Counted from the stretch's first letter, positions 15,568-33,085 are shown. The stretch is 64,000 nt of DNA from Candidatus Woesearchaeota archaeon (GCA_018302545.1 JAGVZM010000003.1:40058-104057), one strand, 5' to 3'. Notes: generated from the letters alone by a model not told the origin. A program made the numbers and translations.

Positions 15568-16038
15568 TCAGTGGGTTCCACTACTTCCAAAACCATCAGA
15601 CCTATTAGTAGAATCTAGATCTTGAACATAGTGAACTTGAACAGTTTCATATTTTTGAATTATAATCTGAGCAATTCTTTCATTTTTAGTTAGATCATAA
15701 GACAAGATTCCATGATTAACAACTATAACACTAATTTCCTCCCTATAGTTTGAATCAATAACTCCTCCCAGAGTATGAATTTCATGTTTAAATGCAAGGC
15801 CACTTCTATCTCTTATGTTGCCCCAATAACCTTGTGGGATTGCCATCTTAATCCCTGTTTTTATTAAAATCCTCTCTCCAGGTTTTAATTGATATTTATC
15901 TTGTTCAATCTCTTTTTTACTAGAATCTAAATCAACAATCCATCTTCCAGAAGCTCTTAAATCTAAACCGCAATCTCCTTGTCTAGAATAACAAATATCA
16001 TCCAAACCTTCAACAAGTTTAATTATCTTTAATTCCAT
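15568..16038 (-). CDS. dut: dUTP diphosphatase (trimeric dUTPase)
   Basis: Conserved dUTPase motifs GLDL, IDSNYREE and C-terminal RSDGFGSSG. Confidence 0.8.
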   Translation of the reverse strand: MELKIIKLVEGLDDICYSRQGDCGLDLRASGRWIVDLDSSKKEIEQDKYQLKPGERILIKTGIKMAIPQGYWGNIRDRSGLAFKHEIHTLGGVIDSNYREEISVIVVNHGILSYDLTKNERIAQIIIQKYETVQVHYVQDLDSTNRSDGFGSSGTH

Positions 16039-16085
16039 TTTCTATATATGCTCTCTTAATTTCTTCAAATGTTGATAAAAATTAT

Positions 16086-18674
16086 TCATTTTAACAAATC
16101 TACATCATGATGTCTGCTTTCTTTCATTCCAGCACCAGTAATCCTAATAAACTCTGCATTTTTCCATAACTCATTAATACTCTTAGATCCACAATAACTC
16201 ATCCCACTTTTCAATCCACCAATTAATTGGTAAATAACTTCTGTAACTTTCCCTCTATAAGGAATAGTCCCCTCAACGCCTTCAGGAACAACATCACTTA
16301 TGTCTGCATCATCTTTACCACTTTCTCTTTCTTTCTTACTTTTATTTGCACCAAAACCAGCCATTCCCCTATAAATTTTATATTTCCTTCCTTCCTTTAT
16401 TATTGTTTGTCCAGGACTTTCATCAGTTCCTGCTAACATATTTCCTAACATAACTGTAGAAGCTCCAGCTGCTAAAGCCTTAACAATATCTCCAGATTGT
16501 TTAATTCCACCATCAGCAATAACTGTAATTCCCACTTCATTCGCAACTTTAGCAGAATCCATAACAGCCGTTAATTGAGGCACACCACAACCAGTCTGAA
16601 TTCTAGTTATACAAATTGAATTATGAACTATTGCATTATTTGCTATAAAACTATGAGTAGGACAATCTATTTCCAAATCATAAACTTTAACACATAAATC
16701 TGTTTTTTCATTTTTTAATAATTTTACAACTTGATAATCTTCAGATAATCTTTTTTCTCCTGTATTTATTATTTCAGAAATATAACTTTGGCTAAAATTA
16801 TCCAAATTAGCATTTTTCAAATTACCTTTACTAATTTTCTTTTTTTGATTATTTGGAAATACACCTTTTAATAAATAGTGAACAATATTAAATAATTCTA
16901 TTAATTTTATTGAAGTATTTGAAAATCTTATTCTTCCCCTTTCTTCTATATTTCCATCTGTATCAATTAAACCATCTAAAATACCTTGCAAATATTCTCT
17001 ATTATTAATTAAATATTTTTGTGGTAATTCTTTATTTTTCTTTTTTCCAAAAGATTGTAAAAAATCTGAAAACGGTTTATAATATAAAATAACTTGAATT
17101 ATATTCTCTTTATATGTTACTTTACATTCTTTATTAAAGATATTTATTATAAATTTCATTAATTTATTAACTTTATCAATTTCATGCTTCCCAAAATACC
17201 ATCTAACAGAACCAACACGAGAATTTTTCTTTGAAATGCCGCTATGTGAAGACCCATCACCTAAAAATGTTCCAAAAATATAACCTAATTCATAACAAGG
17301 TTCAAGACTTACATCATTTAGATATTTATATCGAATTATCCAATTACCCCCAACTCTTTTTTTCAAATTAATTTTAAAATATTGTTCTAGTTCAAACTTT
17401 ATTTCTCTAGGAATTAATAAAACATCTTGTCTAAAATCTTTTACTTCTTTCCACTTGTATTTTGAAGCTTTAGGAATTGTTTTGCTTTGTTTTTGTAATA
17501 ATCTTACATAACCCCTACTTTGTATAGTTTCAATTGAAGAAGTATTCAAGTCTCCTACCCAATACCTATGTTCTGGAGTTACATGGGTTTCTTCATAAAA
17601 TATAGAGTTTCTAATTTTTCTAACTTCTTTAATTCCAGTACAAAATGCTTTTTTAACATTCACAGGTTCTCCATTCTTATTTATTACTCTTTCACCAGCC
17701 TTAATTTCTTCAATATTTTTATAAATTCCATTAGACATTAATACCCTAGTTCCTGCAGCAAAACAGCCCCCTCCAACTCCGACCTTAATACAATCTGCTC
17801 CCGCATTAATTAAATCTAAAGTTCCTTCAGCTGTAGCAACATTTCCAGCAATTATTTGAACATCTCCAAATCTATCTTTAATATTTTTTATAGTAGAAAG
17901 AGTCATATCATGATGTCCATGCGCAACATCTATACAAAGAACATCACATCCAACCTTAATTAAAGCTTCAGTTCTATCCAAATAATCTCCTTTAACCCCA
18001 ACAGCAGCACCAACTAATAATCTCCCTTTCTTATCTTTAGTAGCCAGAGGATGTTTCTCTCTATTAGTTATATCCTTAGCAGTAATTAACCCTTTTAAAA
18101 TTCCTTTACTATCAATTAAAGGAAGTTTCTCAATTTTATTTTGCTTTAATATTTCTTTTGCATTTTCAATATCTTTATTTATGTCACCAATAATTGATTT
18201 TTCTTTTGGAGTCATCAAATCTTTAATTTGTTTTAATAAATTGTCCTCAAACATCATATCTGTGTTTGTTAAAATTCCCACATATCTTCCAACATTATCT
18301 GTAATGGGAATTCCTGTAATATTTTTATCCTGCATTAAAATTTTAGCATCTTTTAAATTATGTTCTGGAGTTAAAGTATAAGGATTCTCTATTACAATTG
18401 CTTCTGATCTTTTAACTTTTAAAATTTCTTTAACTTGGTCGTCTATAGTTAAAAATCTATGAATAATTCCAAGACCCCCTTGTCTTGCCATTTCAATTGC
18501 CATTGCACTTTCCGTAACAGTATCCATATTGGCGCTTATTATAGGCATATTTAGTTTAATTTTATTAGTTAAAAAAGAACTTATATCAACATTTTTTCTA
18601 GAATATATATTGGAAAGTTTAGGAACTAATAAAACATCATCATAAGCTAATGCCTCTCTTATTTCATTATTCAT
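16086..18674 (-). CDS. guaB: Inosine-5'-monophosphate dehydrogenase containing an in-frame intein
   Basis: N-extein carries IMPDH and CBS domains. Catalytic loop VGVGGG|SICITR is split by 382 aa starting with Cys and ending HN. The intein holds two LAGLIDADG blocks. Confidence 0.9.
16620..17765 (-). other. Intein (382 aa) with LAGLIDADG homing-endonuclease domain, inserted at the IMPDH catalytic-Cys loop
   Basis: N-terminal Cys1 (CFAAGTRV). C-terminal ...IVHN with +1 Ser. Endonuclease blocks [13 protein letters not shown] and [14 protein letters not shown]. Confidence 0.8.
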
Positions 18675-18735
18675 TTTACTATAAATCTGAAATTTCTAGA
18701 CTATTTTTAAGTATTATTATCATAAAAGATATAAC

Positions 18736-21087
18736 TTAGAAACTACCTAAATCTAATTGCTTATTACCTTTTAATACATCCTCAAAATTAGTATTGAAAA
18801 AAACAAGAATTGAATCAGCAATAGGTTGTATCTGTCTTTTAATATAATGTTCATAATCGATTTTACTTTTCATCTTCTCTACAGGTTCTGGACCGTCTTC
18901 TGTGATTACATATTTTATTTTATTTGATTCTATTATCCCCCCTCTTTCTAAAAGTTTTCTAGCAGACAAAATGTGGGGTGGTGTAATCTTAGTGTATTCT
19001 TTTAAATCTTTCCTAATACTTTTAGTATAAACTAACATCTCATCATATTTTCCTTTTCTAACATCATCTACAAACTTCTTTGTAAATTTAACAACATCTT
19101 TATTATGAAAGACTCTATCTAATAATTCTTCTTGATATTTTTTAGCTAATTCAGTCCAATCAGATCTCACGGTTTCAAGTCCAGTAAATTCAATTTCCTC
19201 TTTTCCATTCTTAATGACTAAACCCGCATATCTCTTTTTAGCTCCCTCTTCCCTACCTCTAAGTTTAGGCATTAAACATTTAATGAAACATTTTTCATAC
19301 CTCAATTCTAAATAACTTTGACGTTTATACTCTTCTTTAATTAGATGATCATAAAATTCATTTATGTGTTTTTGAATCTTCTTTCCAATCTTATCTGCTT
19401 CTTCTAAATTTTTTGCTTTAGAAACTACAAATGAGCTGTCTGTGTCTTGATAAATTACTTCATAACCTAATTTTTCAATTTCTTTAGAAGTTAATTGAAT
19501 AATATATTGACCAAAATGAGTGATTGCATTTGCAACATTCATATCAAAAAATCTACAACTAGGAGAAGCTAAAACTCCAAAGAAAGAATTACTCAAAATC
19601 TTAATTGCATATCTTGTTAATTCATCTTTTTCTTTTCTTGCTTTTTCCCTTTCATGATATAATTCCGTTAAGATTATTGGCATTATTCCATCTTCATTTC
19701 TAAAGCAAGCTCCATTGGGTGCTTTGATTAAATTTTTACCTTTACAATATTCAACATAAGAGTAAGGATCAATATTAAAACTTCTCATCATACTAGGATA
19801 CAGACTTTTAAAATCTAAAATTAGAATATAATCGTAAATTCCAGGTTTACTCTCCTTAACATATCCCCCTTTAATTGGTTCCTCCTTCAAAGCGAATTTA
19901 GCACTAGGACAAACAATCTTTCTCTTTGTAGTCTCTCTTATATACAAAGAGTCAAGCGAAGCAATTGAAGCATTTACTCTATCTAAGGGCATACCTGTTA
20001 ATAAACTTCTTAATATAGTTAATTCAAATACTCCGCTCTTTTCTAAAATTCTTAATACTAAATCTGCATCTTTAAGATTATATGCAGCTAATTTTTTCTT
20101 ATTATTTCTCCATAGATCATCAATTTCTAAGTATTTATCATGTCCTGTAGTTTTGATTAATTTACCATCCCCTAAAATCTCTCCAGCTACAGTATCAAGT
20201 TTGAAATCTTTAGGTTTAATAAAAGAAACCTTCAATAAATTCAAACCATCTAAAACTTGCCTTCCAATAACATCAACTTTACTATCTTTAAAAAAATCAC
20301 TCTCAATTCTCAACTTAACTTTAGATCTCTCTCTGCCAAAATCAAAAGGAACTTTTAATTTATCACATTTTCCCTTTAAATAATCTAAATCAAAATCAAT
20401 AACATTCCAACCAGTAATAACATCAGGATCTAACTCTATAATATCATTAATAAAATTCTCAAGAACATTAGTTTCACCATTGCAAGAAATAGCACCTTCA
20501 ATTTTATCTTTAGAATTAATGAAAACTTTATTTACATTTCCACAAACATAACCTATGCAATATAATTCATCATTTTTAGGATCACCTTTACTACTTTCTA
20601 TATCAAAACTTAAAATCTTAATATTCTTCGGTTTATAATTATGAATTCCTATTATATCTGGCTCCTTATAAATTCTATCAACTCTTTCACCTATTTCATA
20701 TTCCCCCTCTATCTCTAAACTTCCTTGAATATCATGATCCATCATAAACCTATAAGAAAATCTTATATCTGCTTCATAACTTTCAATTCCTACTTCTGAA
20801 AACTGTTTTTTTAATTTAGGAACTTCTGCAGGAATATCCAAAAAAATCTTAATTACTTTATTGCCATTAAAATTTTGAAAATCGTCATCACTTACTTCAA
20901 AATCAGTTATACCCTTAGCTAATTTTAAATCTTGTTTTTTAATATAAAAATAAGGTTTATAAGAATTAACTGTTAGAAAACTTTCCCCATTCTCTAATCT
21001 TCCATATAAACAAACAAAAGATTTTCCACCAATTACTTTATATGTGGGATAAATAACAAAACCTTTCATAATGATAAAATGTATCAA
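18736..21087 (-). CDS. polB: Family B DNA polymerase
   Basis: Exo I FDIES. Pol motif A DFKSLYPSMM. Motif B KILSNSFFG. Motif C YQDTDS. Confidence 0.9.
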   Translation of the reverse strand: MIHFIIMKGFVIYPTYKVIGGKSFVCLYGRLENGESFLTVNSYKPYFYIKKQDLKLAKGITDFEVSDDDFQNFNGNKVIKIFLDIPAEVPKLKKQFSEVGIESYEADIRFSYRFMMDHDIQGSLEIEGEYEIGERVDRIYKEPDIIGIHNYKPKNIKILSFDIESSKGDPKNDELYCIGYVCGNVNKVFINSKDKIEGAISCNGETNVLENFINDIIELDPDVITGWNVIDFDLDYLKGKCDKLKVPFDFGRERSKVKLRIESDFFKDSKVDVIGRQVLDGLNLLKVSFIKPKDFKLDTVAGEILGDGKLIKTTGHDKYLEIDDLWRNNKKKLAAYNLKDADLVLRILEKSGVFELTILRSLLTGMPLDRVNASIASLDSLYIRETTKRKIVCPSAKFALKEEPIKGGYVKESKPGIYDYILILDFKSLYPSMMRSFNIDPYSYVEYCKGKNLIKAPNGACFRNEDGIMPIILTELYHEREKARKEKDELTRYAIKILSNSFFGVLASPSCRFFDMNVANAITHFGQYIIQLTSKEIEKLGYEVIYQDTDSSFVVSKAKNLEEADKIGKKIQKHINEFYDHLIKEEYKRQSYLELRYEKCFIKCLMPKLRGREEGAKKRYAGLVIKNGKEEIEFTGLETVRSDWTELAKKYQEELLDRVFHNKDVVKFTKKFVDDVRKGKYDEMLVYTKSIRKDLKEYTKITPPHILSARKLLERGGIIESNKIKYVITEDGPEPVEKMKSKIDYEHYIKRQIQPIADSILVFFNTNFEDVLKGNKQLDLGSF

Positions 21088-21140
21088 AACTATATAAATC
21101 TAATCGATAGCAATTTAAAATTTTCTATAAAAATTAAAAT

Positions 21141-21707
21141 ATGCATTCATATAACTTTTTATCAGGAGCAAGAGAAAAGCTAAAGGCTTATAAAAAACCA
21201 AATGACTTAGAGTTACTTGCAGCAACAGATGATCAAATAAAAGAGGAAAGCCCAGATCTACCTAATGAATCCTCAAAAAGATGTTTAAGGTCACAAACAT
21301 ATCTATTCTTAGATGACTGTAGAAGACTAGTCGAAGAGAATAAGCCCTATCGACCTTATCAAATAGGGATGGGAGCATTCTTCGGTGCAATGATTGGAGA
21401 AGGAATAAATCAAGCATTAAACACCAACAGTGTTATAAAAGGAATAGTACATGTAGGGTTTGCAGCAATAGGAACTACATTATGTAGATTGATAGGTGTT
21501 TATTTTAGAGAAGAAAGAATAAGAAATTTTGCAATTATCTATGCTGAAACCCTAGATGAAATACACAAAGGAAATTGCCTAGGAAAAATGGAATATACTC
21601 TTCCAGATAGTCCAGACTATAATCCAAGAACAATAAAGGCAAGAATGAAAAAAGCAAAACCTGAAAAAGTTTTAGAGTATAATCTTGAACTAAAAAACAG
21701 GCAATAA
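21141..21707 (+). CDS. Hypothetical protein (GC-richer)
   Basis: ORF only. Confidence 0.4.
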   Translation: MHSYNFLSGAREKLKAYKKPNDLELLAATDDQIKEESPDLPNESSKRCLRSQTYLFLDDCRRLVEENKPYRPYQIGMGAFFGAMIGEGINQALNTNSVIKGIVHVGFAAIGTTLCRLIGVYFREERIRNFAIIYAETLDEIHKGNCLGKMEYTLPDSPDYNPRTIKARMKKAKPEKVLEYNLELKNRQ

Positions 21708-21718
21708 TTTAAACAAAA

Positions 21719-23554
21719 CTATAAACTTTTAGGCGTAAGAGAAATTTCTTGAGAAACATCAACTTTTTCATCTCCTAAATAACCACCATAAAATTTATAC
21801 ATTGTTGTAGGATCAATATAAGCGCTATAGTTCTTTCTTTCAATTTTAAAATCTAATTTAAAACCAAAGTGCAAATGGACTCCACTCTTACCTTTAACCC
21901 TCCCAGTTCTTCCCATCTGCATAAGATCCTGTCCTAAACCAACTTGATCTAAAGGAGAAACATTAAAAGTATTAGGAACACCATGCAAATAGAATGTTTC
22001 AAATCCTAATTCAGGTTTACCATGTCTAACTTTAACATAATAACCATTAATATTATCTGAACCAGTATCTACAACAACCCCATCCATCACTGAATATATA
22101 GGATCTCCTTGAACTCCAGCTGTAGCAGGAGCAATGTCTATACCGTTATGGTGTCTTCCCCACCTTACCCCAAAATAAGAATTTATCTCAGTATTGACAG
22201 TAGGCCAACCTACACCTTGTTTTAAAGTCAAATAATAAGCCATTACTCTCCTTACATAATCATTTGTTTGATAAGTAAGATGATGTAAAACATCCCAGAT
22301 ATCATTGCTTCCAGCTTTTAGTTTTGCTTCTTTAACTTTTTTAGGACCAGCATTGTAATTTGCTAAAATCTCTACTAAAGAATCTTCTCCTGATGATGGG
22401 GAGTATCTACTATAAAGAGCAATACTATACACCGCTGCTCTTATATTTTCAGATGGATCATTTTTTACTTTATCCCAAGAAAATTCTTCACCACTCAAAA
22501 CCCCGCTTCTAATCAACCTATTTAATTCATCAACATTAATTCTTGTTTGTTGAGTAAGTCCATAAGCATCTTCTCCAGATTTTTTTACTTTTCTTTTCTT
22601 CCCATCAAAGTGTTTGAAATCTCCAGATTCAACAATTGCAATGGCTCTTCCAAAATCAGGATCAACCTCAAAATTATTTCTTTGATTAAATCTTTCTGCA
22701 TGATAGGCAAATGCATCCCAATAAGTTAATTGACCTTGTTCAAAAACATAACCTTCTCTACCTCTCCTTATTTCTTCTTTTCTTTTAATCTCCATTCTAG
22801 GAAGTTCAGGAATTTTTATTCTTTCAACCAAGCCGCTAATATCAGGAGTAGTTAATCCTGGTCTTTCAAGTGCAGCATGTGCAGCGCTAACTGAAAATAA
22901 AGCATATAATAAAGGGACTTTAGATGCCATCCTATTCCTTGCAGGAATCTTAGCTTTTTTTCTATTAAAATATCTTGACAAATCTCTACCAACTTTAACA
23001 CCCAATCCTGAAATTAATCCACCAACACCTAATTTAACCAAATCAAAATCATCTATAACAGTATAACCTAAATGTAAAGTTCCAGCACCAGCCACAAGAG
23101 GTAAAAGATATTTATTATTAACAAATTTATTTTCAGTCAAAAATCTCCTAGCATCAACAATTTTTTGATGCACCTTTCTTAATGCTCCTTTACCTTTAAC
23201 AACATAACTTCCTTTACTTTGATCATATAATCTATATAAATTAATACCTGTAGGAACTGCAATTCCAAATATTCCTGTTAAGCTAGCACCCCATTCTAAT
23301 ATAGAATAAGTTGTATCTCCAATAAACATTCCCATTTGAGTGCTTTCAACACTTAAAGCAAGACCTGCAGCACCAGGAATTAACCATTTCTCAACATGGG
23401 GCTTTATATCTCTTAATGTAGAGTTAAGTCTATCATCTAATTTACCAATTCCTTTTAAGAGTATATCTAATCCCATAACAATACAATTACCACAACTAAG
23501 TAGAAAATTTATAAAGATTTGTATAAGATAAAATTTGTCACTAATAAGAGACAA
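21719..23554 (-). CDS. Membrane-anchored peptidoglycan hydrolase with lytic transglycosylase (SLT) and M23 peptidase domains
   Basis: SLT motif ES...GLTQQ. M23 motifs HNGIDIA and HLHFG. N-terminal TM segments. GC-richer. Confidence 0.7.
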   Translation of the reverse strand: MSLISDKFYLIQIFINFLLSCGNCIVMGLDILLKGIGKLDDRLNSTLRDIKPHVEKWLIPGAAGLALSVESTQMGMFIGDTTYSILEWGASLTGIFGIAVPTGINLYRLYDQSKGSYVVKGKGALRKVHQKIVDARRFLTENKFVNNKYLLPLVAGAGTLHLGYTVIDDFDLVKLGVGGLISGLGVKVGRDLSRYFNRKKAKIPARNRMASKVPLLYALFSVSAAHAALERPGLTTPDISGLVERIKIPELPRMEIKRKEEIRRGREGYVFEQGQLTYWDAFAYHAERFNQRNNFEVDPDFGRAIAIVESGDFKHFDGKKRKVKKSGEDAYGLTQQTRINVDELNRLIRSGVLSGEEFSWDKVKNDPSENIRAAVYSIALYSRYSPSSGEDSLVEILANYNAGPKKVKEAKLKAGSNDIWDVLHHLTYQTNDYVRRVMAYYLTLKQGVGWPTVNTEINSYFGVRWGRHHNGIDIAPATAGVQGDPIYSVMDGVVVDTGSDNINGYYVKVRHGKPELGFETFYLHGVPNTFNVSPLDQVGLGQDLMQMGRTGRVKGKSGVHLHFGFKLDFKIERKNYSAYIDPTTMYKFYGGYLGDEKVDVSQEISLTPKSL

Positions 23555-23557
23555 TAA

Positions 23558-24943: not shown

Positions 24944-25111
24944 TACAGGTATGATCTTAATTCACCTCTCTCGAATTAATTTGAGATTTTTACTCAAACA
25001 AAATTGAGATAATGAGTTTATTAATAAACTTTACTTATGTTAAAAAATATAAAAAGAATTTTAATTCAAAAATCCAAAAATTAATTAAACCTTTGCAAAT
25101 TATTTTAATAA

Positions 25112-26893: not shown

Positions 26894-28698
26894 TAACCAA
26901 TTTGTTTTCTTATTGCTTTTAAATGAGGCACCAATGCTTTAGTCCAACTTTCTAAAACACCTTCAACTCTTCCACCAATTAAATCATTTATATCCACAAG
27001 ATTACCTTCAACAATAGACTTATCCTTAACTCGAACTTCTCCATCTGTATAAGTAGCATAAATTAATCCAAAATGATCCTTATCTACTTCTTCATCCTCA
27101 ACATATAAAGTTCCTACTAAGCTTGGTTCTGAATATTTTTCTTCAAACGTAACATCTCCTAAAACTTTATCTCTCAAACAATTAGCAATATAATCTGGCC
27201 CATGAGATCTAGCAACATGACCTCCAACTCCAATAGAGATTTTATCAAATAATCTTTTATCTCCATAATCCTTAATGTCACTAGATCTTCTATAAATAAA
27301 CACCTTATCTGAATTAGTAAATATGAGCATATAATCAATTACTTGCAAGACCTCAGGATCGCCTTCACAATCATATCTAGAATGGAAAAATCCTTTTTCA
27401 CATGTTTTTATTATCTCCCCTCTTTGAGCATCAGAATCTATAGATTCAAAACCAAATCTACCTCTTCTATTATTCAATAAACTCTCTTTCTCTTCAACCA
27501 ATACCAATCTATCTAATTTTCCATGTTCTTTAGCAGCACTTTTATAATCAAAATTAGTAAAATGCTTTGAAACTTTTGGGCCCCTCTGTCCTTGATAACT
27601 AGAACCTATTTTAGATCCATAAACTTTATCTGCATCCACTTCACATCTAAAAACATCTAATACACTTATAGGCATGCCATGTTCTAGTGCAATAGGTTTT
27701 AATTCATCTGATCTTACTTCAAAAACCAAATCTCCTAAGAATCCAGGATCTATAAAACCTGCAAAATGTAACATCCCTTGTATTCCAGTATGGTGTGTTG
27801 CCCTAACTTCAGAGCTTAATGCTGGACCAAACCTTAAAATTTCCGCAGAACTAAATAAATAATATTTTTCAGGTTCAATAACAACTCTTCCATCTTTAGC
27901 AAAAACAGGTTCGAAATAATCTTCAGACACTGACCCATTAGACTTTGATAAGTCAACAACAAAAGGAGGTTGTCTAGCCATTAAACCAACAATCCCAGAG
28001 CTAGACTTTCCTTCAAGATTTAATCTAACAACTAATTCTCCATTATCAATCTTAGCAGGAGTTAATGTTCCTCTTTCATCAGAATAGAGAAGCATAGGAT
28101 TTCTAATATGCTCTTCTATAATCTCCTTGTCATTTAACTTAGAATCTAAACCTTGGAAAAATCTAAGTTGGTTTAAAGTTAATCCTTCTGAAGCTTTTAC
28201 ATTAAATACCATAGGTTGTACTAATAACCATAGATCAGAAACACAACTATCTTCTCTTCCAATTAACTCATCAAAACTTGCGCTGTAATCTACTAATAAC
28301 CTAGTATTCAAAAAATTTCTTCCAGTTGTACTTTTAGGAGAAGATTTTACGCGTTGTCCTTCGCTTAATTTAATTTTTTCATTTAATTTTAATAAATAAG
28401 AATACCCAACTAATAAATGATCATCATCAAGTCTTATCTTTCTCCTTTTTCTCTTCTCTAAATGGAGTAAATGTCTATAAACCGAGTCTTTGCTAGTACC
28501 TTTAAAACCAGTAGCATCTAAAACATAACCATCTCCACTTAAAGTAGGTTCAAAAGAAGCAGGTTGCACTCTTTTTTCTAAAGCAGCACAATTATTTATT
28601 TCTTGAGATCCTTTAAAATTTCCCTCAGGAACAACTAACCTTCCTTCAACAATTAAATTTCTAATATCTTGAGAATTTAAAGCATAACCTCTTGTCAT
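26890..28698 (-). CDS. dCTP deaminase/dUTPase-superfamily protein, long form with extra C-terminal domain
   Basis: N-terminal DIRNLIVEGRLVV and HFAGFIDPGFLGDLVFEV resemble dCTP deaminase motifs. 602 aa. Confidence 0.45.
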   Translation of the reverse strand: MTRGYALNSQDIRNLIVEGRLVVPEGNFKGSQEINNCAALEKRVQPASFEPTLSGDGYVLDATGFKGTSKDSVYRHLLHLEKRKRRKIRLDDDHLLVGYSYLLKLNEKIKLSEGQRVKSSPKSTTGRNFLNTRLLVDYSASFDELIGREDSCVSDLWLLVQPMVFNVKASEGLTLNQLRFFQGLDSKLNDKEIIEEHIRNPMLLYSDERGTLTPAKIDNGELVVRLNLEGKSSSGIVGLMARQPPFVVDLSKSNGSVSEDYFEPVFAKDGRVVIEPEKYYLFSSAEILRFGPALSSEVRATHHTGIQGMLHFAGFIDPGFLGDLVFEVRSDELKPIALEHGMPISVLDVFRCEVDADKVYGSKIGSSYQGQRGPKVSKHFTNFDYKSAAKEHGKLDRLVLVEEKESLLNNRRGRFGFESIDSDAQRGEIIKTCEKGFFHSRYDCEGDPEVLQVIDYMLIFTNSDKVFIYRRSSDIKDYGDKRLFDKISIGVGGHVARSHGPDYIANCLRDKVLGDVTFEEKYSEPSLVGTLYVEDEEVDKDHFGLIYATYTDGEVRVKDKSIVEGNLVDINDLIGGRVEGVLESWTKALVPHLKAIRKQIGY

Positions 28699-28845
28699 GC
28701 TCTTGCATTCAATTTAACTTTTAAATACATTTATATCCAGAAAAAGTTACAACAAAACACTATTAAGGCTACAACTAAAATAGTAATAACAACTAAAAAC
28801 ATATTTTCTATTTAAGAAAATTATTTAAATCATTTCAACATCAGA

Positions 28846-28892
28846 ATACTATATTTTGTGTTTTACTTCAAATAAGACACAATATATTGTGT
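28846..28892 (+). promoter_or_regulatory. Two NrdR boxes. Box 2 ACACAATATATTGTGT (28877-28892) is a perfect palindrome. Box 1 is ATACTATATTTTGTGT (28846-28861). Centres are 31 bp apart.
   Basis: Match to the NrdR-box consensus acaCwAtATaTwGtgt. Lies in the divergent intergenic region just upstream of nrdR. Confidence 0.7.
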
Positions 28893-28909
28893 TTACTCTA
28901 GGGTAATAA

Positions 28910-29362
28910 ATGAAATGTATATTTTGTAACAACACAGAAACAAAAGTAGTTGATTCAAGAGAATCAGAAGATTTAACAAGAAGAAGAAGGGAATGTTTAA
29001 TCTGTCAAAAAAGGTTTACAACTTATGAAAGAGCAGAAGATCCGCAAGTATACATAATAAAGAAGGATAATAGAAGAGAATTATACAATAGGGGAAAACT
29101 AAAAGGGGGAATATTAAAAGCCTGTGAAAAAAGACCAATATCATTAGAAAAAATTGATATAGGTATAAACAAGATCGAGTCAAAACTAAGAACCTTAGAA
29201 AATAATGAAATACAAAGTAAGTTGCTTGGTGAAGAAGTAGCAAAAATGTTAAAACAACTTGATAAGGTAGCATACATAAGATTCGCATCTGTTTACAGAG
29301 AGTTTGAGGACATCGGAGACTTTAAAAAAGAAATTCAAATACTATCAAAAAGAAGGGGGTAA
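28910..29362 (+). CDS. nrdR: Transcriptional repressor NrdR (zinc ribbon plus ATP-cone)
   Basis: MKCIFCNNTETKVVDSRESEDLTRRRRECLICQKRFTTYE. Confidence 0.85.
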   Translation: MKCIFCNNTETKVVDSRESEDLTRRRRECLICQKRFTTYERAEDPQVYIIKKDNRRELYNRGKLKGGILKACEKRPISLEKIDIGINKIESKLRTLENNEIQSKLLGEEVAKMLKQLDKVAYIRFASVYREFEDIGDFKKEIQILSKRRG

Positions 29363-29367
29363 TGTAA

Positions 29368-31944
29368 ATGCAAAAAGAAGAAATAAAAAGAGGAGAAGAT
29401 TCTGTTTCTACATTTGAGGAGGGTTTGCAATCTATAGAGGAGTTAGCTACAAAAGGAACTAAAGTTCAGGTTACTGAAAATCAATTAAAGGTTATGCAGA
29501 ATAAATATTTAAGAGGAGATTCTGTTGAATTATGGTTAAGGAGAATAGCAAGAAACATTGCATTGCCAAATGTTTATTATTATTCTAAAGAATTTCAAAA
29601 AGAAATATTAAAAGGAGTAAAACATAAGATTACAATTTCAAATGATGAATATAAATCTGAATCTTTGCTCTTACAATTACCTGAGTTAACCAGAAATGAA
29701 AGAACCCAAAATTTCTATAAGTTTGAAGATAATATTATTAAGTTTGCACAAAAAAATAAAGAAGCAACCAAGATATTAAGATCTAAAGAAGAACAATTTT
29801 TCAAATTTTTATCTAGTTTTGATTTTTTACCAAACTCTCCATGTTTAATGAATGCTGGAAGAGATCTTCAAGGTTTACATGCATGTTATGTAATTCCTGT
29901 AGGAGACTCACTTGAAGAAATTTATTATGCTGTAACTACTATGGCTTTAATTCATCAATCTGGTGGAGGAACAGGCTTTGCATTCTCTAGATTAAGACCA
30001 GAAGGAGATAAAGTTAGATCTACTAAAGGAGTTTCATCTGGTCCTATGTCTTTCATAAAACTCTTTGATACCTCAACAGATGTTGTTCGTCAAGGAGGAA
30101 CTAGAAGAGGTGCAAATATGGGTATTTTACATTACAAACACCCAGATATTAGAAGTTTTATAACCTCAAAATCCAAAGACAAAGGTTTCTTACAGAACTT
30201 TAATATCTCTGTAGGAATAGATGAAGAATTTATTAAAGCAGTTGAAATTGGTGGAGAAATAGACTTAATTAATCCTAGGACTAATCAAGTAGTAAAAAGA
30301 GAAAAAGCAAGAGAGTTATGGGATTTAATGGCAAAATGTGCATGGGAAACAGGAGATCCTGGTTTTGTTGTTATAGATAGAATTAATAATACAAATTCAA
30401 ACCCAACACCAAAATTAGGTCCAGTAGAATCTACTAACCCGTGTGGAGAGCAACCCCTATTACCATGGGAGCCTTGTACTTTAGGTAGTATTAATCTATC
30501 TAATCATGTAACAGAAGAAAAAGGAAAGACAATTGTAGACTATCAAAAATTAGAATACACTTCAAAATTAGCAACAGAGTTTTTAGAGAATGTTGTTGAA
30601 ATGGGCAATTATCCTCTTCCAGAAATTGAAGTAATATCTAAAGGAAATAGACGTATAGGATTAGGAGTTATGGGTTGGGCAGAAATGTTAGTCAAATTAG
30701 AAATCCCCTATGACTCAGAGGAAGCAATAACATTAGCAGAGGAAGTAATGGCATTTATAAATGCTAAAGCTCTAGAAGCTTCTCAAGAACTATCAGAGCT
30801 AAGGGGAGTATTCCCCAATTACAAAGACTCTATCTACGACAAGAAAGGAACCTATTTTAGAGGTCAAGATATAAAAGTAAGAAATTGTGCAACAATAGCT
30901 CCAACAGGCACTATAGCAATAACTGCAGGTCTACAAGGCTCCGGTATTGAACCTTTCTTTGCAATTGCTTACAAAAGATATCAAGCAGAAGCGGTAGATG
31001 CCTTAAAGTTAGGTAAAGAACCAGATTCAAAATATGTTTATTTTGAAGTCATACCTGCCTTTTTGGAAGTAGCAGAAAAACACAATTGGTTCGGAGCAGA
31101 TAAAAATACTTTGCTTAAAAAAATATCAGATAATCACTCTTCTGTAAAAGGAGTTAAAGAAATTCCAGAACATATACAAAAAGTATTTGTGTCTTCTCAT
31201 GACATTCATTGGAAAACACATATAGACCATCAAGCAGCATATCAAAGAAATGTTGATAATGCAGTTTCAAAAACGATTAACATGACTAATTCAGTAACTA
31301 TAGAGGACATACAATCAGCTTACTTATATGCATATAAGTCTGGATTAAAAGGAGTGACTGTTTATAGAGATGGATGTAAAGAAGTACAAGTATTGAATTT
31401 AGCCCAAGACAAAAAAAAACAAGAACAAAAGCAAATACAAAAACAAAAAATAGAAAAAAAAGAAATTGATTATACAAAAGGCGCATCATCTGATTACTAT
31501 GAAATTGAGACAGGTTACGGAACTTTACATGTTAATATAGTTCATGACTCAGATGGTCCTTCAAAAATATTTGCTTCCATACCTCCATTAGGTACAGAGT
31601 TAAGTAATTTGACATGTGTTTTAGGAATATTTATGACTAAAGCATTTGAAGCTGGTTATGATCCTAGAAAAGCAATCAAACACTTAAATTCTGCAAAAGG
31701 AGATAAACCCATTGGATTTGGTGCAAATAGAATTGACTCAATACCTCATGCAATTGCTGTAGCTCTAAAAAGACATTTAGAGAAAACAGGTAAAGTAGGA
31801 GATCAAGAACAAAAAAGATTAACAGAGATGGACATTGGTGTTAAACAAGAACATTGTCCAAAATGTTATTCACCAAATGTAGAATATGTATCTGGTTGTT
31901 CATCTCCAACATGTATAGATTGTGGACATTCAGAATGTAGTTAA
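29368..31944 (+). CDS. nrdJ: Class II (adenosylcobalamin-dependent) ribonucleotide reductase with C-terminal zinc ribbon
   Basis: Active-site NPCGEQPL. C-terminal CPKC...CIDCGHSEC. K/Q-rich low-complexity linker. Confidence 0.85.
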   Translation: MQKEEIKRGEDSVSTFEEGLQSIEELATKGTKVQVTENQLKVMQNKYLRGDSVELWLRRIARNIALPNVYYYSKEFQKEILKGVKHKITISNDEYKSESLLLQLPELTRNERTQNFYKFEDNIIKFAQKNKEATKILRSKEEQFFKFLSSFDFLPNSPCLMNAGRDLQGLHACYVIPVGDSLEEIYYAVTTMALIHQSGGGTGFAFSRLRPEGDKVRSTKGVSSGPMSFIKLFDTSTDVVRQGGTRRGANMGILHYKHPDIRSFITSKSKDKGFLQNFNISVGIDEEFIKAVEIGGEIDLINPRTNQVVKREKARELWDLMAKCAWETGDPGFVVIDRINNTNSNPTPKLGPVESTNPCGEQPLLPWEPCTLGSINLSNHVTEEKGKTIVDYQKLEYTSKLATEFLENVVEMGNYPLPEIEVISKGNRRIGLGVMGWAEMLVKLEIPYDSEEAITLAEEVMAFINAKALEASQELSELRGVFPNYKDSIYDKKGTYFRGQDIKVRNCATIAPTGTIAITAGLQGSGIEPFFAIAYKRYQAEAVDALKLGKEPDSKYVYFEVIPAFLEVAEKHNWFGADKNTLLKKISDNHSSVKGVKEIPEHIQKVFVSSHDIHWKTHIDHQAAYQRNVDNAVSKTINMTNSVTIEDIQSAYLYAYKSGLKGVTVYRDGCKEVQVLNLAQDKKKQEQKQIQKQKIEKKEIDYTKGASSDYYEIETGYGTLHVNIVHDSDGPSKIFASIPPLGTELSNLTCVLGIFMTKAFEAGYDPRKAIKHLNSAKGDKPIGFGANRIDSIPHAIAVALKRHLEKTGKVGDQEQKRLTEMDIGVKQEHCPKCYSPNVEYVSGCSSPTCIDCGHSECS

Positions 31945-31998
31945 ACATATATTTTATTTTTCCATTATTTTTTTAAAGTTTTATTTATTTTATTTTTC

Positions 31999-32718
31999 AT
32001 GAAATCAAATATAACTAGAAGGTTGATAGTATCAGATTTAGACGAGATATTCTTTCCAATAAGACAAGTTTATGTAAATGCAATAAACATGAGATTTGGT
32101 CTTAGTTTAGATTCATCTAGTTATAATTGTTATGGGGTAATGGCTTGGTTAGCTTCTCATCATCCAGAAGTTTTTGCTGAAATTGAAAGAAGAGGAGGAA
32201 AACTTGAACATTTTAAGTGGTTAAGCGTAAATACTAATTTATTACAAGATACTCCTCCAATTCCAGGAACAGCAGAATATGCAGGAGAACTTAAAGATAG
32301 AAAAATATCACTAGGAATTGCAACCCATAGAGCATCTCCAAAAGATCCCCATTATTATTATCAAGATGGTCCAAAAATAACAAGAGAATGGTTAGTAAGA
32401 TTTGGAATACCCTTTGATTTTATAGAATTTACAGGAGAAAAAGCAGCTGCAATAGCAAAAATAGAAGGAGAAGCAGGCTGTTCTGCAGAAGTATATGTTG
32501 AAGACCATCCAGCAAATATAATTGAAACTCTTGAAGCAGGTTACAGAGTAGCATTTCCAGATAAAACTTATAATCAAGCAGATTTAATTTCAGAAGATGC
32601 AGATCCTATAAGTTATGGTAATGGTAGGTTTACTCAAGAAAAATGGACAAACACTTTAAGGTCTCCTAGAGTTCATAGAATAAAGCATTTAAGAGATATA
32701 TCTGATTTAGTTGCATAA
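31999..32718 (+). CDS. HAD-like hydrolase, possible 5'(3')-deoxyribonucleotidase
   Basis: IVSDLDEIF resembles the HAD motif I DxDG. Sits within the nucleotide cluster. GC-richer. Confidence 0.3.
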   Translation: MKSNITRRLIVSDLDEIFFPIRQVYVNAINMRFGLSLDSSSYNCYGVMAWLASHHPEVFAEIERRGGKLEHFKWLSVNTNLLQDTPPIPGTAEYAGELKDRKISLGIATHRASPKDPHYYYQDGPKITREWLVRFGIPFDFIEFTGEKAAAIAKIEGEAGCSAEVYVEDHPANIIETLEAGYRVAFPDKTYNQADLISEDADPISYGNGRFTQEKWTNTLRSPRVHRIKHLRDISDLVA

Positions 32719-32776
32719 ATTTATTACTATTCCATCCTCAATAACTTTAATAAATAAAATAAAAACCACTTAAAAA

Positions 32777-33085
32777 ATGCTAGAATTAAACAAGATAAAT
32801 TACAAAGAAGTAATATCTAAAGGAAAAGTAGTAGTTGACTATTGGGCCCCCTGGTGCGGCCCCTGCAGGGCAATGGCTCCTATATTTGAAGAACTAAGCA
32901 AAGAATTCAAAAAAGTCAAATTCACAAAATTAAATGTAGATGAAAATCAAGAAATTGCTTCTAAGTTAGGGATTCAGGGTATACCCACTTTAATTTTGTT
33001 TAAAGAGGGGAAGGAAATAAAAAGAAGAACAGGTTTACTCTCTAAATCAGCTTTAAAAGAACTTTTAGAAGACAATTTTTCTTAA
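32777..33085 (+). CDS. trxA: Thioredoxin
   Basis: WCGPC active site, about 102 aa. Confidence 0.85.

What the first reader, a model, noticed from the sequence alone, without database searches (positions are those of the whole stretch)
15568..33085. Unusually dense nucleotide-salvage and dNTP-supply supercluster with a dedicated NrdR regulon
About 17 kb contains the following genes.
- dut
- guaB (with intein)
- polB
- a tandem thymidine kinase
- a long dCTP-deaminase-like protein
- nrdR
- class II RNR
- a HAD nucleotidase-like gene
- thioredoxin
Only ABCE1 and a murein hydrolase are interspersed. Nearby are cdd and adk. Such clustering of DNA-precursor enzymes around the replicative polymerase resembles jumbo-phage or giant-virus modules more than typical archaeal chromosomes. 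It fits an organism with no de novo nucleotide synthesis that converts scavenged nucleosides into dNTPs. Several members (TK, dcd-like, nucleotidase, cdd) are GC-richer and bacterial-type.
Basis: partly seen in the sequence, partly recalled or inferred. Interest (0 to 1): 0.6.

Follow-up and report, generated by a model that had tools for sequence, protein, structure and literature searches.

The report
Archaeal dNTP-supply gene neighbourhood with NrdR
A tiny symbiotic archaeon (Woesearchaeota) keeps most of its DNA-precursor enzymes next to its DNA polymerase, but only the ribonucleotide reductase operon carries the bacterial-type NrdR switch, so this is a real, partly conserved neighbourhood of moderate interest, not one regulon and not a virus-like module.

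Summary
The genes are real and lie at the stated coordinates. Eight of 14 genes in 15568-33085 act on nucleotides or dNTPs: dut, intein-bearing guaB, tandem TK, long dCTP deaminase, nrdR, class II RNR, a HAD deoxyribonucleotidase-like protein and thioredoxin. PolB lies among them.

The window is chromosomal DNA of a Woesearchaeota (DPANN) archaeon. It is not a virus, a defence island or a chimera.

Comparison with 54 related species shows a conserved core: ABCE1, then a variable dUMP-supply gene, then nrdR and an RNR. The variable gene is a long DCD, DCD-Nudix, Nudix alone, a kinase-deaminase fusion or dut. The polB-guaB-dut and TK parts occur only in the closest relatives.

The "NrdR regulon" is a single operator. 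Two canonical NrdR boxes 31 bp apart lie upstream of nrdR-nrdJ, and this arrangement is conserved across Woesearchaeota. They sit about 22 nt downstream of a TATA-like element, so they probably cover the transcription start. No other site exists in the 64 kb.

The GC-rich/recent-transfer claim fails, because GC3 is uniform.

Three sub-findings:
- The long DCD is fused to a TM1382-type Nudix domain. The fusion is widespread in DPANN, but the motif is degenerate in this copy.
- The tandem TK has a dead N-terminal half, as in Trypanosoma.
- No paper in the searched library mentions both NrdR and DPANN.

Absence of de novo nucleotide synthesis could not be tested.

The parts
15568..16038 (-). dut, trimeric dUTPase (dUTP -> dUMP + PPi)
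   Evidence: PF00692 89 bits; TIGR00576 120.5 bits against a cutoff of 102.6. All five dUTPase motifs are readable in the translation.
16086..18674 (-). guaB (IMP dehydrogenase with a CBS pair) interrupted by an intein
   Evidence: PF00478 466 bits, plus CBS, Hom_end_hint, LAGLIDADG_3 and Intein_splicing. The extein is 480 aa.
16620..17765 (-). LAGLIDADG intein (aa 304-685) inserted just before the catalytic-loop SIC(I)T
   Evidence: Junctions GVGGG|CFAAG and VHN|SICITR.
18736..21087 (-). Family-B DNA polymerase (exonuclease plus polymerase domains). It is co-directional with guaB and dut, with gaps of 61 and 47 bp.
   Evidence: PF00136 137 bits and PF03104 72 bits. polB-guaB adjacency is kept in L005 and L012.
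21141..21707 (+). Uncharacterised 188-aa ORF. It is an interspersed gene, not a nucleotide enzyme.
   Evidence: No Pfam, NCBIfam, PHROG or PADLOC hit.
21719..23554 (-). SLT lytic transglycosylase plus M23 peptidase (murein hydrolase), interspersed
   Evidence: PF01464 and PF01551. This protein class is already described for Woesearchaeota and Pacearchaeota (PMC8204110).
24410..24943 (-). Tandem TK, N-terminal TK1-like pseudo-domain (aa 1-178)
   Evidence: PF00265 39 bits on this half alone. The P-loop reads GPVKSRKT. The catalytic 'DExQF' is replaced by 'ISGISHF'. The Zn ligands C144/C149/C167/H170 are invariant.
23741..24409 (-). Tandem TK, C-terminal canonical TK1 domain (aa 179-401)
   Evidence: P-loop GPMYVGKTT, FIDESQF motif and CVDC lasso. 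PDB TK1 hits reach 6e-15.
25112..26893 (+). ABCE1/RLI ribosome-recycling ATPase, the synteny anchor of the neighbourhood
   Evidence: Fer4_RLI plus two ABC_tran domains. In 35 related loci with at least 6 kb of downstream flank, an nrdJ-like RNR follows in 19 and nrdR in 15.
27547..28698 (-). Long (two-barrel) dCTP deaminase module of the DCD-Nudix fusion (aa 1-384)
   Evidence: DCD_N and DCD_C. PDB 2r9q at 3e-31. The invariant SPKS..GR and AGF.D.GF...E motifs are kept.
26893..27546 (-). TM1382/COG4112-type Nudix domain of the fusion (aa 385-602), with a degenerate Nudix box
   Evidence: PDB 3e57 at 3e-11 by sequence. The AF2 model has pLDDT 88.4, and Foldseek finds 3e57 at E 5e-13 with TM 0.84, followed by NTP pyrophosphohydrolases. 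The family motif CLEREVxxEEV reads CLRDK-VLGDV here.
28824..28830 (+). TATA-like element (TTTAAAT) of the nrdR-nrdJ promoter (predicted)
   Evidence: A TATA-like heptamer starts 20-24 nt upstream of box 1 in 9 of the 11 loci examined; one locus had no match and one was at 32 nt. The function is inferred.
28846..28861 (.). NrdR box 1 (ATACTATATTTTGTGT)
   Evidence: One mismatch to the consensus. It scores 18.2 bits on a PWM built only from relatives' boxes. The best shuffle averaged 13.3 bits, and one of 50 shuffles reached 18.3.
28877..28892 (.). NrdR box 2 (ACACAATATATTGTGT, a perfect palindrome), 31 bp from box 1 and 18 bp before the nrdR ATG
   Evidence: No mismatches. PWM score 23.5 bits. 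The same tandem arrangement lies upstream of nrdR in L006, L008, L010, L012, L044, L055, L143 and others.
28910..29362 (+). nrdR, Zn-ribbon plus ATP-cone repressor
   Evidence: TIGR00244 176.6 bits against a cutoff of 124.7. E 1e-41 to solved bacterial NrdR structures over the full length.
29368..31944 (+). nrdJ, class II (B12-dependent) ribonucleotide reductase. It has no ATP-cone, has a Cys-rich C-terminal tail, and starts 5 bp after nrdR.
   Evidence: TIGR02504 639 bits against a cutoff of 400; PF02867 410 bits; TSCPD. The tail sequence was read.
31999..32718 (+). HAD-fold, NT5C-like putative 5'(3')-deoxyribonucleotidase
   Evidence: A rare family: 24 representatives among 1.84e9 proteins. 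D13, D15, R111, T128, W131, K148 and D169 are invariant and T109 is nearly so. Model pLDDT is 91.6. The top PDB hit is 3bwv, a deoxyribonucleotidase-like protein; mdN and cdN are among the lowest-rmsd hits. A 39%-identical homologue sits directly after nrdJ in L143/L144.
32777..33085 (+). Thioredoxin (WCGPC), the likely reductant for NrdJ
   Evidence: PF00085 108 bits. A trx gene lies downstream of the RNR in L011, L020 and L143, and beside DCD-Nudix in L061.
11703..12656 (-). Two-domain cytidine deaminase (HGE...PCGNC in the N-terminal domain), lying outside the stated interval
   Evidence: PF00383 29.3 bits, above the 25-bit cutoff. PF08211 24.1 bits, just below its cutoff. Motifs were read.
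8596..9132 (-). Adenylate kinase, lying outside the stated interval
   Evidence: PF00406 130 bits.

Best explanation
This is an ordinary chromosomal stretch of a Woesearchaeota (DPANN) archaeon in which several independent transcription units for DNA-precursor supply have accreted around a conserved core.

**The core.** The core is ABCE1, then a variable 'dUMP-supply' gene, then nrdR, then an RNR. It is shared by many Woesearchaeota.

**How the nrdR-nrdJ operon is controlled (inferred).**
- The operon is the only NrdR-controlled unit.
- A bacterial-type NrdR senses the ATP/dATP ratio through its ATP-cone.
- When dATP rises, NrdR binds as a tetramer to two 16-bp boxes spaced 31 bp apart.
- The boxes lie about 22 nt downstream of a TATA-like element.
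- They therefore probably cover the transcription start and the early transcribed region.
- Binding would block RNA-polymerase recruitment or escape at an archaeal promoter.
- NrdJ itself has no ATP-cone, so NrdR would supply the missing dATP feedback.

**The surrounding genes.**
- DCD (dCTP -> dUTP) and dut (dUTP -> dUMP) feed the dUMP/dTTP branch. No thymidylate synthase was found in the window.
- TK captures scavenged thymidine. It is a pseudo-dimer with a dead N-terminal domain, which probably raises substrate affinity.
- The HAD NT5C-like phosphatase would bleed off excess dNMPs.
- Thioredoxin would re-reduce NrdJ.
- guaB feeds the guanylate branch.

**Scope.** The polB-guaB-dut and TK units joined this neighbourhood only in the window's closest relatives. 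They show no NrdR site.

**What is shown and what is inferred.**
- Shown: gene identities, operator sequence and conservation, synteny, folds and motif states.
- Inferred: the enzymatic activities, the transcription start position, the repression mechanism and any selective reason for the clustering.
For: **Gene identities:**

**Archaeal chromosomal context and taxon:**
- The ABCE1-anchored scan returned Woesearchaeota/Nanoarchaeota MAGs for all but a few weak matches.
- The same gene order appears in four independent assemblies.
- GC3 is uniform.

**Conserved core and variable slot:**
- Among 35 loci with at least 6 kb downstream of ABCE1, 19 have an nrdJ-like RNR and 15 have nrdR. The binomial P is 7e-17 against a 2% chance expectation.
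- Near ABCE1, usually between it and nrdR, lies a long DCD (L006, L008, L011, L015), DCD-Nudix (window, L012), Nudix alone (L047) or a kinase-CDA fusion (L010, L044, L047, L020, L024).
- dut follows ABCE1 or the RNR in L030, L038, L039, L040, L049 and L052.

**Operator:**
- Of 21 sites with at most 2 mismatches in 800 kb of related loci, 17 lie within about 75 bp upstream of nrdR.
- A PWM trained on relatives finds only the two boxes in the window.
- The TATA-to-box-1 distance is 20-24 nt in 9 of 11 loci.

**Independent links:**
- DCD-Nudix lies beside nrdD-nrdG and trx in L061, and near ThyX, tmk and a deaminase in L062.
- A HAD homologue sits directly after nrdJ in L143.

**Literature:**
- The NrdR mechanism and the nrdRJ operon precedent are in PMC9110341.
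- The tandem-TK precedent is in PMC9190010.
Against: - No transcript, transcription-start or binding data exist. The start position is predicted only from typical archaeal TATA spacing.
- HAD and trx each have their own TATA-like element about 25 nt before the ATG, and T-runs follow nrdJ. They may therefore not be under NrdR control.
- The link between ABCE1 and nrdR has no known functional rationale. It may be inherited gene order only.
- The extended cluster is seen only in close relatives: polB in 5 loci, the tandem TK in 2 loci plus one further contig, and the DCD-Nudix orthologue in 1. Neutral accretion in a small genome is therefore not excluded.
- The Nudix catalytic motif is degenerate in this copy, so the fusion may not be bifunctional here.
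- No thymidylate synthase was seen in the window, so the fate of dUMP is unknown.
Confidence: 0.78

Rival explanations
1. The whole 17.5 kb is one co-regulated supercluster, a true NrdR regulon. NrdR would control dut, guaB, polB, TK and DCD as well as the RNR.
For: - All these genes serve DNA synthesis and are adjacent.
- The DCD-Nudix gene is divergent from nrdR and shares the 211-bp intergenic region that holds the boxes.
Against: - Only two sites in 64 kb exceed background. The next best PWM score is 11.6 bits, against a mean shuffle maximum of 13.3.
- In 800 kb of related loci the boxes lie almost only before nrdR.
- Box 1 is 148 bp from the DCD start codon, beyond where its own promoter would be expected.
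- The genes lie on both strands in at least five separate units.
Confidence: 0.05
2. The region is an integrated virus, a giant-virus-like module or a mobile island that carries auxiliary nucleotide-metabolism genes.
For: - Large phages and giant viruses carry RNR, TK, dut, dcd, thioredoxin and PolB together (general knowledge).
- An intein and a TnpB gene are present in the window.
Against: - There are no capsid, terminase, portal or integrase genes. Ten unknown ORFs gave no PHROG hits.
- IMG/VR contains only short dcd relatives, at 27-39% identity.
- Phage TK matches are below 30% identity and no single phage match spans both TK domains.
- ABCE1, THUMP, M48 and aTrm56 are cellular genes, and their order is kept in other species.
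- GC3 is uniform.
Confidence: 0.03
3. The clustering is inherited or neutral gene order in a very small genome, with no selective or functional meaning beyond the nrdR-nrdJ operon.
For: - The ABCE1 linkage has no functional logic.
- The extended part (polB-guaB-dut, TK) is limited to the nearest relatives.
- The units appear to have separate promoters.
Against: - Different, non-homologous dUMP-producing enzymes occupy the same neighbourhood in different lineages: long DCD, DCD-Nudix, kinase-CDA and dut. Repeated recruitment is hard to explain by ancestry alone.
- In other lineages DCD-Nudix lies beside a class III RNR and trx, or beside ThyX and tmk.
- Enrichment is P <= 2.3e-6 after correction, under assumed genome totals.
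Confidence: 0.12
4. The DCD-Nudix, HAD and TK genes form a nucleotide-depletion antiviral defence island rather than housekeeping metabolism.
For: - dCTP deaminases are known anti-phage effectors, as covered in a review found.
- A kinase-CDA fusion that fills the same slot in relatives matches the PADLOC dCTP-deaminase defence model at 2e-40.
Against: - None of the window's nucleotide enzymes matches any PADLOC model.
- DCD-Nudix is near-universal across Woesearchaeota and Pacearchaeota, with at least 120 clusters at 40-53% identity.
- It sits beside RNR/trx or ThyX/tmk, as expected of a core pathway.
Confidence: 0.03
5. The mix of bacterial-type and archaeal-type genes is a chimeric assembly.
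For: Sigma-70, NrdR, SLT/M23 and TK1 sit next to ABCE1, PolB and aTrm56.
Against: - The gene order is identical in four independent assemblies.
- The same interleaving is seen in dozens of other MAGs.
- GC3 is uniform.
- Bacterial-type genes in DPANN are documented, and mis-binning has been ruled out for them (PMC8204110).
Confidence: 0.01

Closest known systems
Streptomyces coelicolor nrdRJ operon and bacterial NrdR-box operators
   Same: - nrdR lies directly upstream of a class II RNR in one operon.
- The repressor has the Zn-ribbon plus ATP-cone architecture and is about 1e-41 to solved bacterial NrdRs.
- Two partially palindromic 16-bp boxes are separated by a 15-nt linker, close to the transcription start.
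- The operon is autoregulated.
- Sources: PMC9110341, PMC13584703.
   Different: - The host is an archaeon with a BRE/TATA-type promoter and a TBP/TFB/RNAP machinery.
- The boxes lie downstream of a TATA-like element rather than over -35/-10 hexamers.
- Only one operator was found, and only one RNR is present in the window.
- No paper in the searched library mentions both NrdR and DPANN.
Tandem thymidine kinases of Trypanosoma brucei and Giardia intestinalis
   Same: - Two TK1 domains in one polypeptide, one of them catalytically dead.
- They occur in organisms that depend on scavenged nucleosides.
- In T. brucei the first domain is the inactive one, as here, and it raises substrate affinity (PMC9190010).
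   Different: - This is an independent, archaeal origin.
- Only 12 clusters were found, those with a source name being Woesearchaeota, at 32-44% identity.
- Some members keep a canonical P-loop in the N-terminal domain.
- Activity and oligomeric state are untested.
Long 2'-deoxycytidine 5'-triphosphate deaminase (PF06559, PDB 2r9q) and bifunctional DCD-DUT enzymes
   Same: - The same two-barrel DCD architecture with conserved active-site motifs.
- Like DCD-DUT of Methanocaldococcus and Mycobacterium (from my own knowledge), the fusion could make dUMP from dCTP in one protein.
   Different: - The second activity, if present, would come from an appended Nudix domain and not from the DCD active site.
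- The protein scores 164 bits on NF005734, below the 283-bit cutoff.
- In this copy the Nudix box is degenerate, and a separate dut gene is present.
TM1382/COG4112 Nudix proteins (PDB 3e57), and possibly B. subtilis YmaB in the nrdI-nrdEF-ymaB operon
   Same: - The same fold and family as TM1382.
- YmaB is a Nudix protein encoded in an RNR operon, with reported dNTP pyrophosphohydrolase activity (PMC5960316). That is a precedent for a link between a Nudix protein and an RNR.
   Different: - That YmaB belongs to the TM1382/COG4112 family is my recollection and was not tested here.
- The standalone bacterial homologue P0180 shows no RNR neighbour.
- Here the domain is fused to a DCD.
Mammalian and bacterial 5'(3')-deoxyribonucleotidases (NT5C family: cdN, mdN, 3bwv)
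   Same: - HAD fold with DxD, T, K and D motifs.
- These proteins are the best or lowest-rmsd structural neighbours.
- A kinase/nucleotidase substrate cycle with TK is a known way of controlling dNTP pools (general knowledge).
   Different: - There is no sequence-level match to PF06941 or any other Pfam model.
- The family is very rare, with 24 representatives.
- The substrate is unknown.

Membership tests
NrdR repressor / NrdR-box operator | N-terminal Zn-ribbon (two CxxC) plus a C-terminal ATP-cone, about 150 aa | tested here: met
   PF22811 plus PF03477. TIGR00244 176.6 bits against a cutoff of 124.7. Full-length match to solved NrdRs at 1e-41.
NrdR repressor / NrdR-box operator | Two 16-bp partially palindromic boxes, 15-16 bp apart, upstream of an RNR operon | tested here: met
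   Boxes at 28846-28861 and 28877-28892, with a 15-nt linker. The arrangement is conserved in relatives. PWM scores are 18.2 and 23.5 bits, against a mean shuffle maximum of 13.3.
NrdR repressor / NrdR-box operator | Boxes overlap the promoter or transcription start | tested here: inconclusive
   A TATA-like element lies 20-24 nt upstream of box 1 in 9 of 11 loci. This predicts a transcription start inside box 1. There are no TSS data.
NrdR repressor / NrdR-box operator | dATP/ATP-dependent DNA binding and repression | not testable with these tools
   This needs EMSA or in vitro transcription with archaeal factors.
   No further site above background in 64 kb.
Class II (adenosylcobalamin) ribonucleotide reductase NrdJ | RNR barrel with the NrdJ-specific profile, and a Cys-rich C-terminal tail | tested here: met
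   TIGR02504 639 bits against a cutoff of 400. PF02867 410 bits. TSCPD. Tail reads HCPKC...CIDCGHSEC. B12 dependence was not tested.
TK1-type thymidine kinase | P-loop GPMxxGK[ST], catalytic DExQF, and a Zn-binding lasso | tested here: met
   The C-terminal domain (aa 179-401) has GPMYVGKTT, FIDESQF and CVDC, and matches PDB TK1 at 6e-15.
TK1-type thymidine kinase | The same catalytic motifs in the N-terminal domain | tested here: not met
   The N-terminal domain hits PF00265 at 39 bits, but it has GPVKSRKT, and ISGISHF in place of DExQF. It is a pseudo-enzyme domain.
Long dCTP deaminase (PF06559 / NF005734) | DCD_N plus DCD_C barrels with the KSS..GR and DPGF...E motifs | tested here: met
   Pfam hits of 65.7 and 98.3 bits. 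PDB 2r9q at 3e-31. The motifs are invariant in A1. The NCBIfam equivalog cutoff is not reached: 164 bits against 283.
Nudix hydrolase | Nudix fold | tested here: met
   Model pLDDT 88.4. Foldseek finds 3e57 at 5e-13 with TM 0.84, followed by many Nudix NTP pyrophosphohydrolases.
Nudix hydrolase | Catalytic Nudix box (RE..EE glutamates) | tested here: not met
   The window copy reads CLRDK-VLGDV where at least 90% of 20 homologues read C..RE(V)..EE. The box is intact in the relatives.
HAD-superfamily 5'(3')-deoxyribonucleotidase (NT5C) | HAD Rossmann fold with the DxD nucleophile motif and T, K and D motifs | tested here: met
   D13, D15, R111, K148 and D169 are invariant; T109 is nearly so. 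Model pLDDT 91.6. The top PDB hit is 3bwv; 4mum and 2i7d are among the lowest-rmsd hits.
HAD-superfamily 5'(3')-deoxyribonucleotidase (NT5C) | Sequence membership in PF06941, and deoxynucleotidase activity | tested here: not met
   No Pfam or NCBIfam hit, apart from HAD_2 at E 0.045. Activity is not testable here.
Prophage / viral auxiliary nucleotide module | Viral hallmark genes, or viral relatives of the cluster genes | tested here: not met
   No structural or integrase domains appear.
Anti-phage dNTP-depletion systems | Match to known defence dCTP deaminase or dGTPase models | tested here: not met
   No PADLOC hit for DCD-Nudix, TK, HAD, dut or cdd.

The most novel reading that the evidence does not exclude
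Three parts, none excluded by the evidence:
1. Woesearchaeota have wired a bacterial NrdR nucleotide sensor onto an archaeal TATA promoter. It acts as the sole dATP feedback on an RNR that lacks an ATP-cone.
2. Beside it they maintain an exchangeable 'dUMP-supply slot'. The commonest occupant of that slot, the DPANN-wide DCD-Nudix fusion, is an uncharacterised bifunctional enzyme that converts dCTP to dUMP in one polypeptide. This is a third, independent solution alongside DCD plus Dut and the single-site DCD-DUT.
3. The tandem pseudo-dimeric TK is a convergent high-affinity scavenging device like that of trypanosomes.
Probability: 0.35. Interest if true: 0.55.

Novelty: new variant of a known kind. 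Interest (0 to 1): 0.4.

Why it matters
**For DPANN biology.** The region gives a concrete, testable picture of how a host-dependent archaeon with little biosynthetic capacity controls its dNTP pools.
- There is a single NrdR-gated RNR operon.
- Around it sit enzymes that make or salvage dUMP and dTMP.

**For transcription biology.** It offers a clean natural case of a bacterial repressor and its operator working at an archaeal promoter.
- The operator sequence is conserved in at least a dozen of the Woesearchaeota species examined.
- This could be tested in vitro with TBP, TFB and RNAP.

**For enzymology.** It points to two undescribed protein architectures:
- the DCD-Nudix fusion, sometimes with an added NDK domain;
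- an archaeal tandem TK pseudo-dimer.

**Limits.** It does not change any major concept. Gene clustering of a pathway, NrdR control of an RNR, and salvage dependence in DPANN are all established.

Tried and rejected
1. **NrdR boxes elsewhere.** I searched the window by consensus with up to 3 mismatches and by a PWM trained on relatives. Nothing exceeded background.
2. **GC content as a transfer signal.** Rejected after per-codon-position analysis.
3. **Phage donors.** tblastn of TK against 50,697 phage records gave only matches below 30% identity, none spanning both TK domains in one alignment. An IMG/VR scan with the DCD-Nudix profile gave only short dcd genes.
4. **PHROG scan of 10 unknown ORFs.** No hits.
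5. **PADLOC scan.** The window's nucleotide enzymes have no defence-model match.
6. **Sequence-only annotation of the HAD-like ORF.** This failed in Pfam, NCBIfam and PDB phmmer. Structure prediction was needed.
7. **Context of a standalone bacterial COG4112 homologue (P0180).** No RNR linkage was seen, so it was uninformative.
8. **A link between YmaB and the fused Nudix domain.** I could not verify it by sequence and leave it as a recollection.
9. **Literature on a DCD-Nudix fusion or on NrdR in DPANN.** No paper describing either was found.
10. **Testing for absent pur/pyr pathways.** Not possible.

Full report
**What is there**

The window is 29% GC and carries archaeal markers: aTrm56, ABCE1, family-B DNA polymerase and TrmB regulators. 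An ABCE1-anchored scan of one genome per GTDB species returned 55 loci. Apart from a few weak matches (Aenigmatarchaeota, unclassified archaea and one bacterial ABC ATPase), they are Woesearchaeota/Nanoarchaeota MAGs, with up to 79% identity. The exact DCD protein is named "Candidatus Woesearchaeota archaeon" in NCBI and lies on a 186-kb contig. The same gene order occurs in four independent metagenome assemblies.

- dut
- guaB with a 382-aa LAGLIDADG intein, inserted immediately before the catalytic SIC(I)T loop
- polB
- a 401-aa TK with two TK1 domains
- a 602-aa long dCTP deaminase
- nrdR
- nrdJ
- thioredoxin
- ABCE1, an SLT+M23 murein hydrolase and one unknown ORF interspersed among them
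- cdd and adk upstream

The "HAD nucleotidase-like" ORF has no significant sequence-profile hit. It belongs to a very rare family, with 24 representatives among 1.84 billion proteins. The DxD nucleophile motif, K148 and D169 are invariant and T109 is nearly so. The predicted structure has pLDDT 91.6. Its best PDB neighbour is a deoxyribonucleotidase-like protein (3bwv). Human mdN and cdN are among the lowest-rmsd matches.

**Is it more than chance?**

Eight of the 14 genes in the interval act on nucleotides or dNTPs, against 2 of about 52 elsewhere in the window (Fisher p = 2e-5). For assumed genome totals of 1000-1500 genes with 20-40 nucleotide-metabolism genes, the probability is at most 2.3e-6 even after correcting for every window position. 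The clustering is real.

**Is it conserved?**

tblastn of the window's proteins against the 54 related loci shows a two-layer picture.

*The widely conserved core.* Among 35 loci with at least 6 kb downstream of ABCE1, 19 carry an nrdJ-like RNR and 15 carry nrdR. Others carry nrdD-nrdG. The binomial P is 7e-17 against a 2% chance expectation.

*A variable slot.* Near ABCE1, usually between it and nrdR, lies a gene that differs by lineage but always serves dUMP supply:
- a long DCD without Nudix (L006, L008, L011, L015)
- the DCD-Nudix fusion (window, L012)
- a Nudix domain alone (L047)
- a kinase-cytidine-deaminase fusion (L010, L044, L047, L020, L024, and the contig)
- dut, following ABCE1 or the RNR (L030, L038, L039, L040, L049, L052)

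*The lineage-restricted part.* polB, guaB, the murein hydrolase and the tandem TK accompany this core only in the nearest relatives (L005, L006, L007, L010, L012).

*Further synteny.* A close relative (L143; ABCE1 84% identical) keeps this order: ABCE1, nrdR, nrdJ, HAD homologue, trx, THUMP, M48. It lacks DCD-Nudix. The HAD gene is thus linked to the RNR in a second species although only 38-39% identical.

**The NrdR part**

NrdR is full-length and canonical. It scores 176.6 bits on TIGR00244 and 1e-41 against solved bacterial NrdRs.

Two boxes lie 31 bp apart, and the second ends 18 bp before the nrdR start codon:
- ATACTATATTTTGTGT at 28846
- the perfect palindrome ACACAATATATTGTGT at 28877

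nrdJ follows nrdR after 5 bp.

In 800 kb of related loci, 17 of 21 sites with at most 2 mismatches lie within about 75 bp upstream of nrdR, often as the same tandem pair. A PWM built from the relatives' boxes alone scores the two window boxes at 23.5 and 18.2 bits. The next best site scores 11.6 bits, below the mean best score of shuffled sequence, 13.3. The "regulon" in this window is therefore one operator.

Aligning the upstream regions shows a conserved purine-rich/TATA-like element (aaaNcTTATAAA). It starts 20-24 nt before box 1 in 9 of the 11 loci examined. With the usual archaeal spacing of TATA to start site (established knowledge), the start falls inside box 1. This is the position at which archaeal repressors typically block polymerase recruitment. 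That step is inference.

NrdJ here has no ATP-cone, so NrdR would provide the dATP feedback. The dATP/ATP-dependent tetramer mechanism and the nrdRJ operon arrangement are known from Streptomyces (PMC9110341).

HAD and trx each have their own TATA-like element about 25 nt before the ATG, and T-runs follow nrdJ. I do not count them as NrdR-controlled.

**Unusual proteins**

*DCD-Nudix.* The 220-aa C-terminal extension of the DCD matches TM1382 (PDB 3e57, E 3e-11). It folds as a Nudix domain: pLDDT 88.4, Foldseek TM 0.84 to 3e57, followed by NTP pyrophosphohydrolases that include pyrimidine-dNTP enzymes.
- The roughly 600-aa fusion is widespread in Woesearchaeota, Pacearchaeota and Nanoarchaeota. 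There are at least 120 clusters at 40-53% identity, and two carry an added NDK domain.
- In other lineages it sits next to nrdD-nrdG and trx (L061), or near ThyX, tmk and a deaminase (L062).
- The family keeps a Nudix-like RE..EE motif, but the window copy has lost it: CLRDK-VLGDV. Here the separate dut gene probably does the second step.
- No paper describing a DCD-Nudix fusion was found.

*Tandem TK.*
- The N-terminal half is a TK1 domain (39 bits) that lacks the catalytic DE and has a non-canonical P-loop.
- The C-terminal half is canonical.
- Only 12 clusters exist; those with a source name are Woesearchaeota.
- The architecture parallels the T. brucei enzyme, whose inactive first domain raises substrate affinity (PMC9190010).

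**Claims that fail**

- *GC richness.* The "GC-richer" genes have the same or lower GC3 (0.107-0.148) than polB (0.161) and ABCE1 (0.165). Their extra GC lies in codon positions 1 and 2. There is no sign of recent transfer.
- *Virus-like module.* Nothing viral was found.
- *Defence island.* There is no defence-model match for the window's enzymes.
- *Novelty of the bacterial-type genes.* Sigma-70, murein hydrolases and DnaK-DnaJ-GrpE in Woesearchaeota are already described (PMC8204110).

**What stays open**

- Whether this genome lacks de novo purine and pyrimidine synthesis could not be tested. The lineage is reported to have minimal nucleotide biosynthesis, with exceptions (PMC8421398, PMC6349945).
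- The window holds no thymidylate synthase, tmk or ndk.
- Enzymatic activities, the transcription start and NrdR binding are all unmeasured.

**Verdict**

This is a real, statistically non-random and partly conserved dNTP-supply neighbourhood on a Woesearchaeal chromosome. Its core is an autoregulated nrdR-nrdJ operon of bacterial design placed on an archaeal promoter. It is not one regulon and not virus-like. Interest is moderate. It rests on three things:
- the archaeal NrdR operator, for which the searched library holds no paper that mentions both NrdR and DPANN
- the exchangeable dUMP-supply slot
- two uncharacterised enzyme architectures

Noticed in passing
window 12738-14159 (-): A 473-aa sigma-70-family protein (regions 2, 3 and 4) in an archaeal genome, with a weak PADLOC MzaA hit. 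Sigma-70 genes in Woesearchaeota are already reported (PMC8204110), but their role alongside TBP/TFB is unknown.
   Followed up: partly
window 14523-14966 (+): A standalone macrodomain protein that matches the DarG antitoxin macrodomain (PADLOC, 4e-38). No DarT-like neighbour was recognised. The convergent ORF 14963-15436 has no hits.
   Followed up: partly
window 16620-17765 (-); L008, L009, L020, L044, L143: The guaB intein shows 23-26% tblastn similarity to sequences within or adjoining nrdJ in several relatives, and L143's nrdJ (1249 aa) carries an annotated Hint/LAGLIDADG intein. The window's own nrdJ is intein-free. This suggests related homing endonuclease inteins moving between nucleotide-metabolism genes.
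   Followed up: partly
P0038, P0053 (relatives of window 26890-28698): Triple fusions of DCD, Nudix and nucleoside-diphosphate kinase (about 765 aa) exist in related archaea.
   Followed up: no
L062:13789-14835 (-); also L010, L044, L047, L020, L024: A nucleotide-kinase plus cytidine-deaminase fusion matches the anti-phage dCTP-deaminase model (PADLOC dCTPase, 2e-40). In Woesearchaeota it sits in the housekeeping slot next to nrdR and the RNR, or beside ThyX and tmk. It may be a metabolic relative of the defence enzyme.
   Followed up: partly
window 11596-11681 (-): An 86-nt tRNA detected by Rfam (60 bits) but missed by ARAGORN. It may contain an intron or be otherwise atypical.
   Followed up: no
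window 11204-11590 (-): A 128-aa ORF consisting only of a bacterial DnaG-type CHC2 zinc finger.
   Followed up: no
window 2502-3653 (+): A TnpB/IS605 OrfB-type (Cas12f-like TNB domain) transposon-associated nuclease gene.
   Followed up: no
window 45196-50036 (-): A bacterial-type DnaJ, DnaK and GrpE chaperone cluster with two small unknown ORFs between dnaJ and dnaK. This is already described for DPANN (PMC8204110).
   Followed up: no
window 33180-34871 (+): A 563-aa protein with only a C-terminal thioredoxin domain recognised. It lies directly downstream of trx, and its N-terminal 450 aa are unassigned.
   Followed up: no
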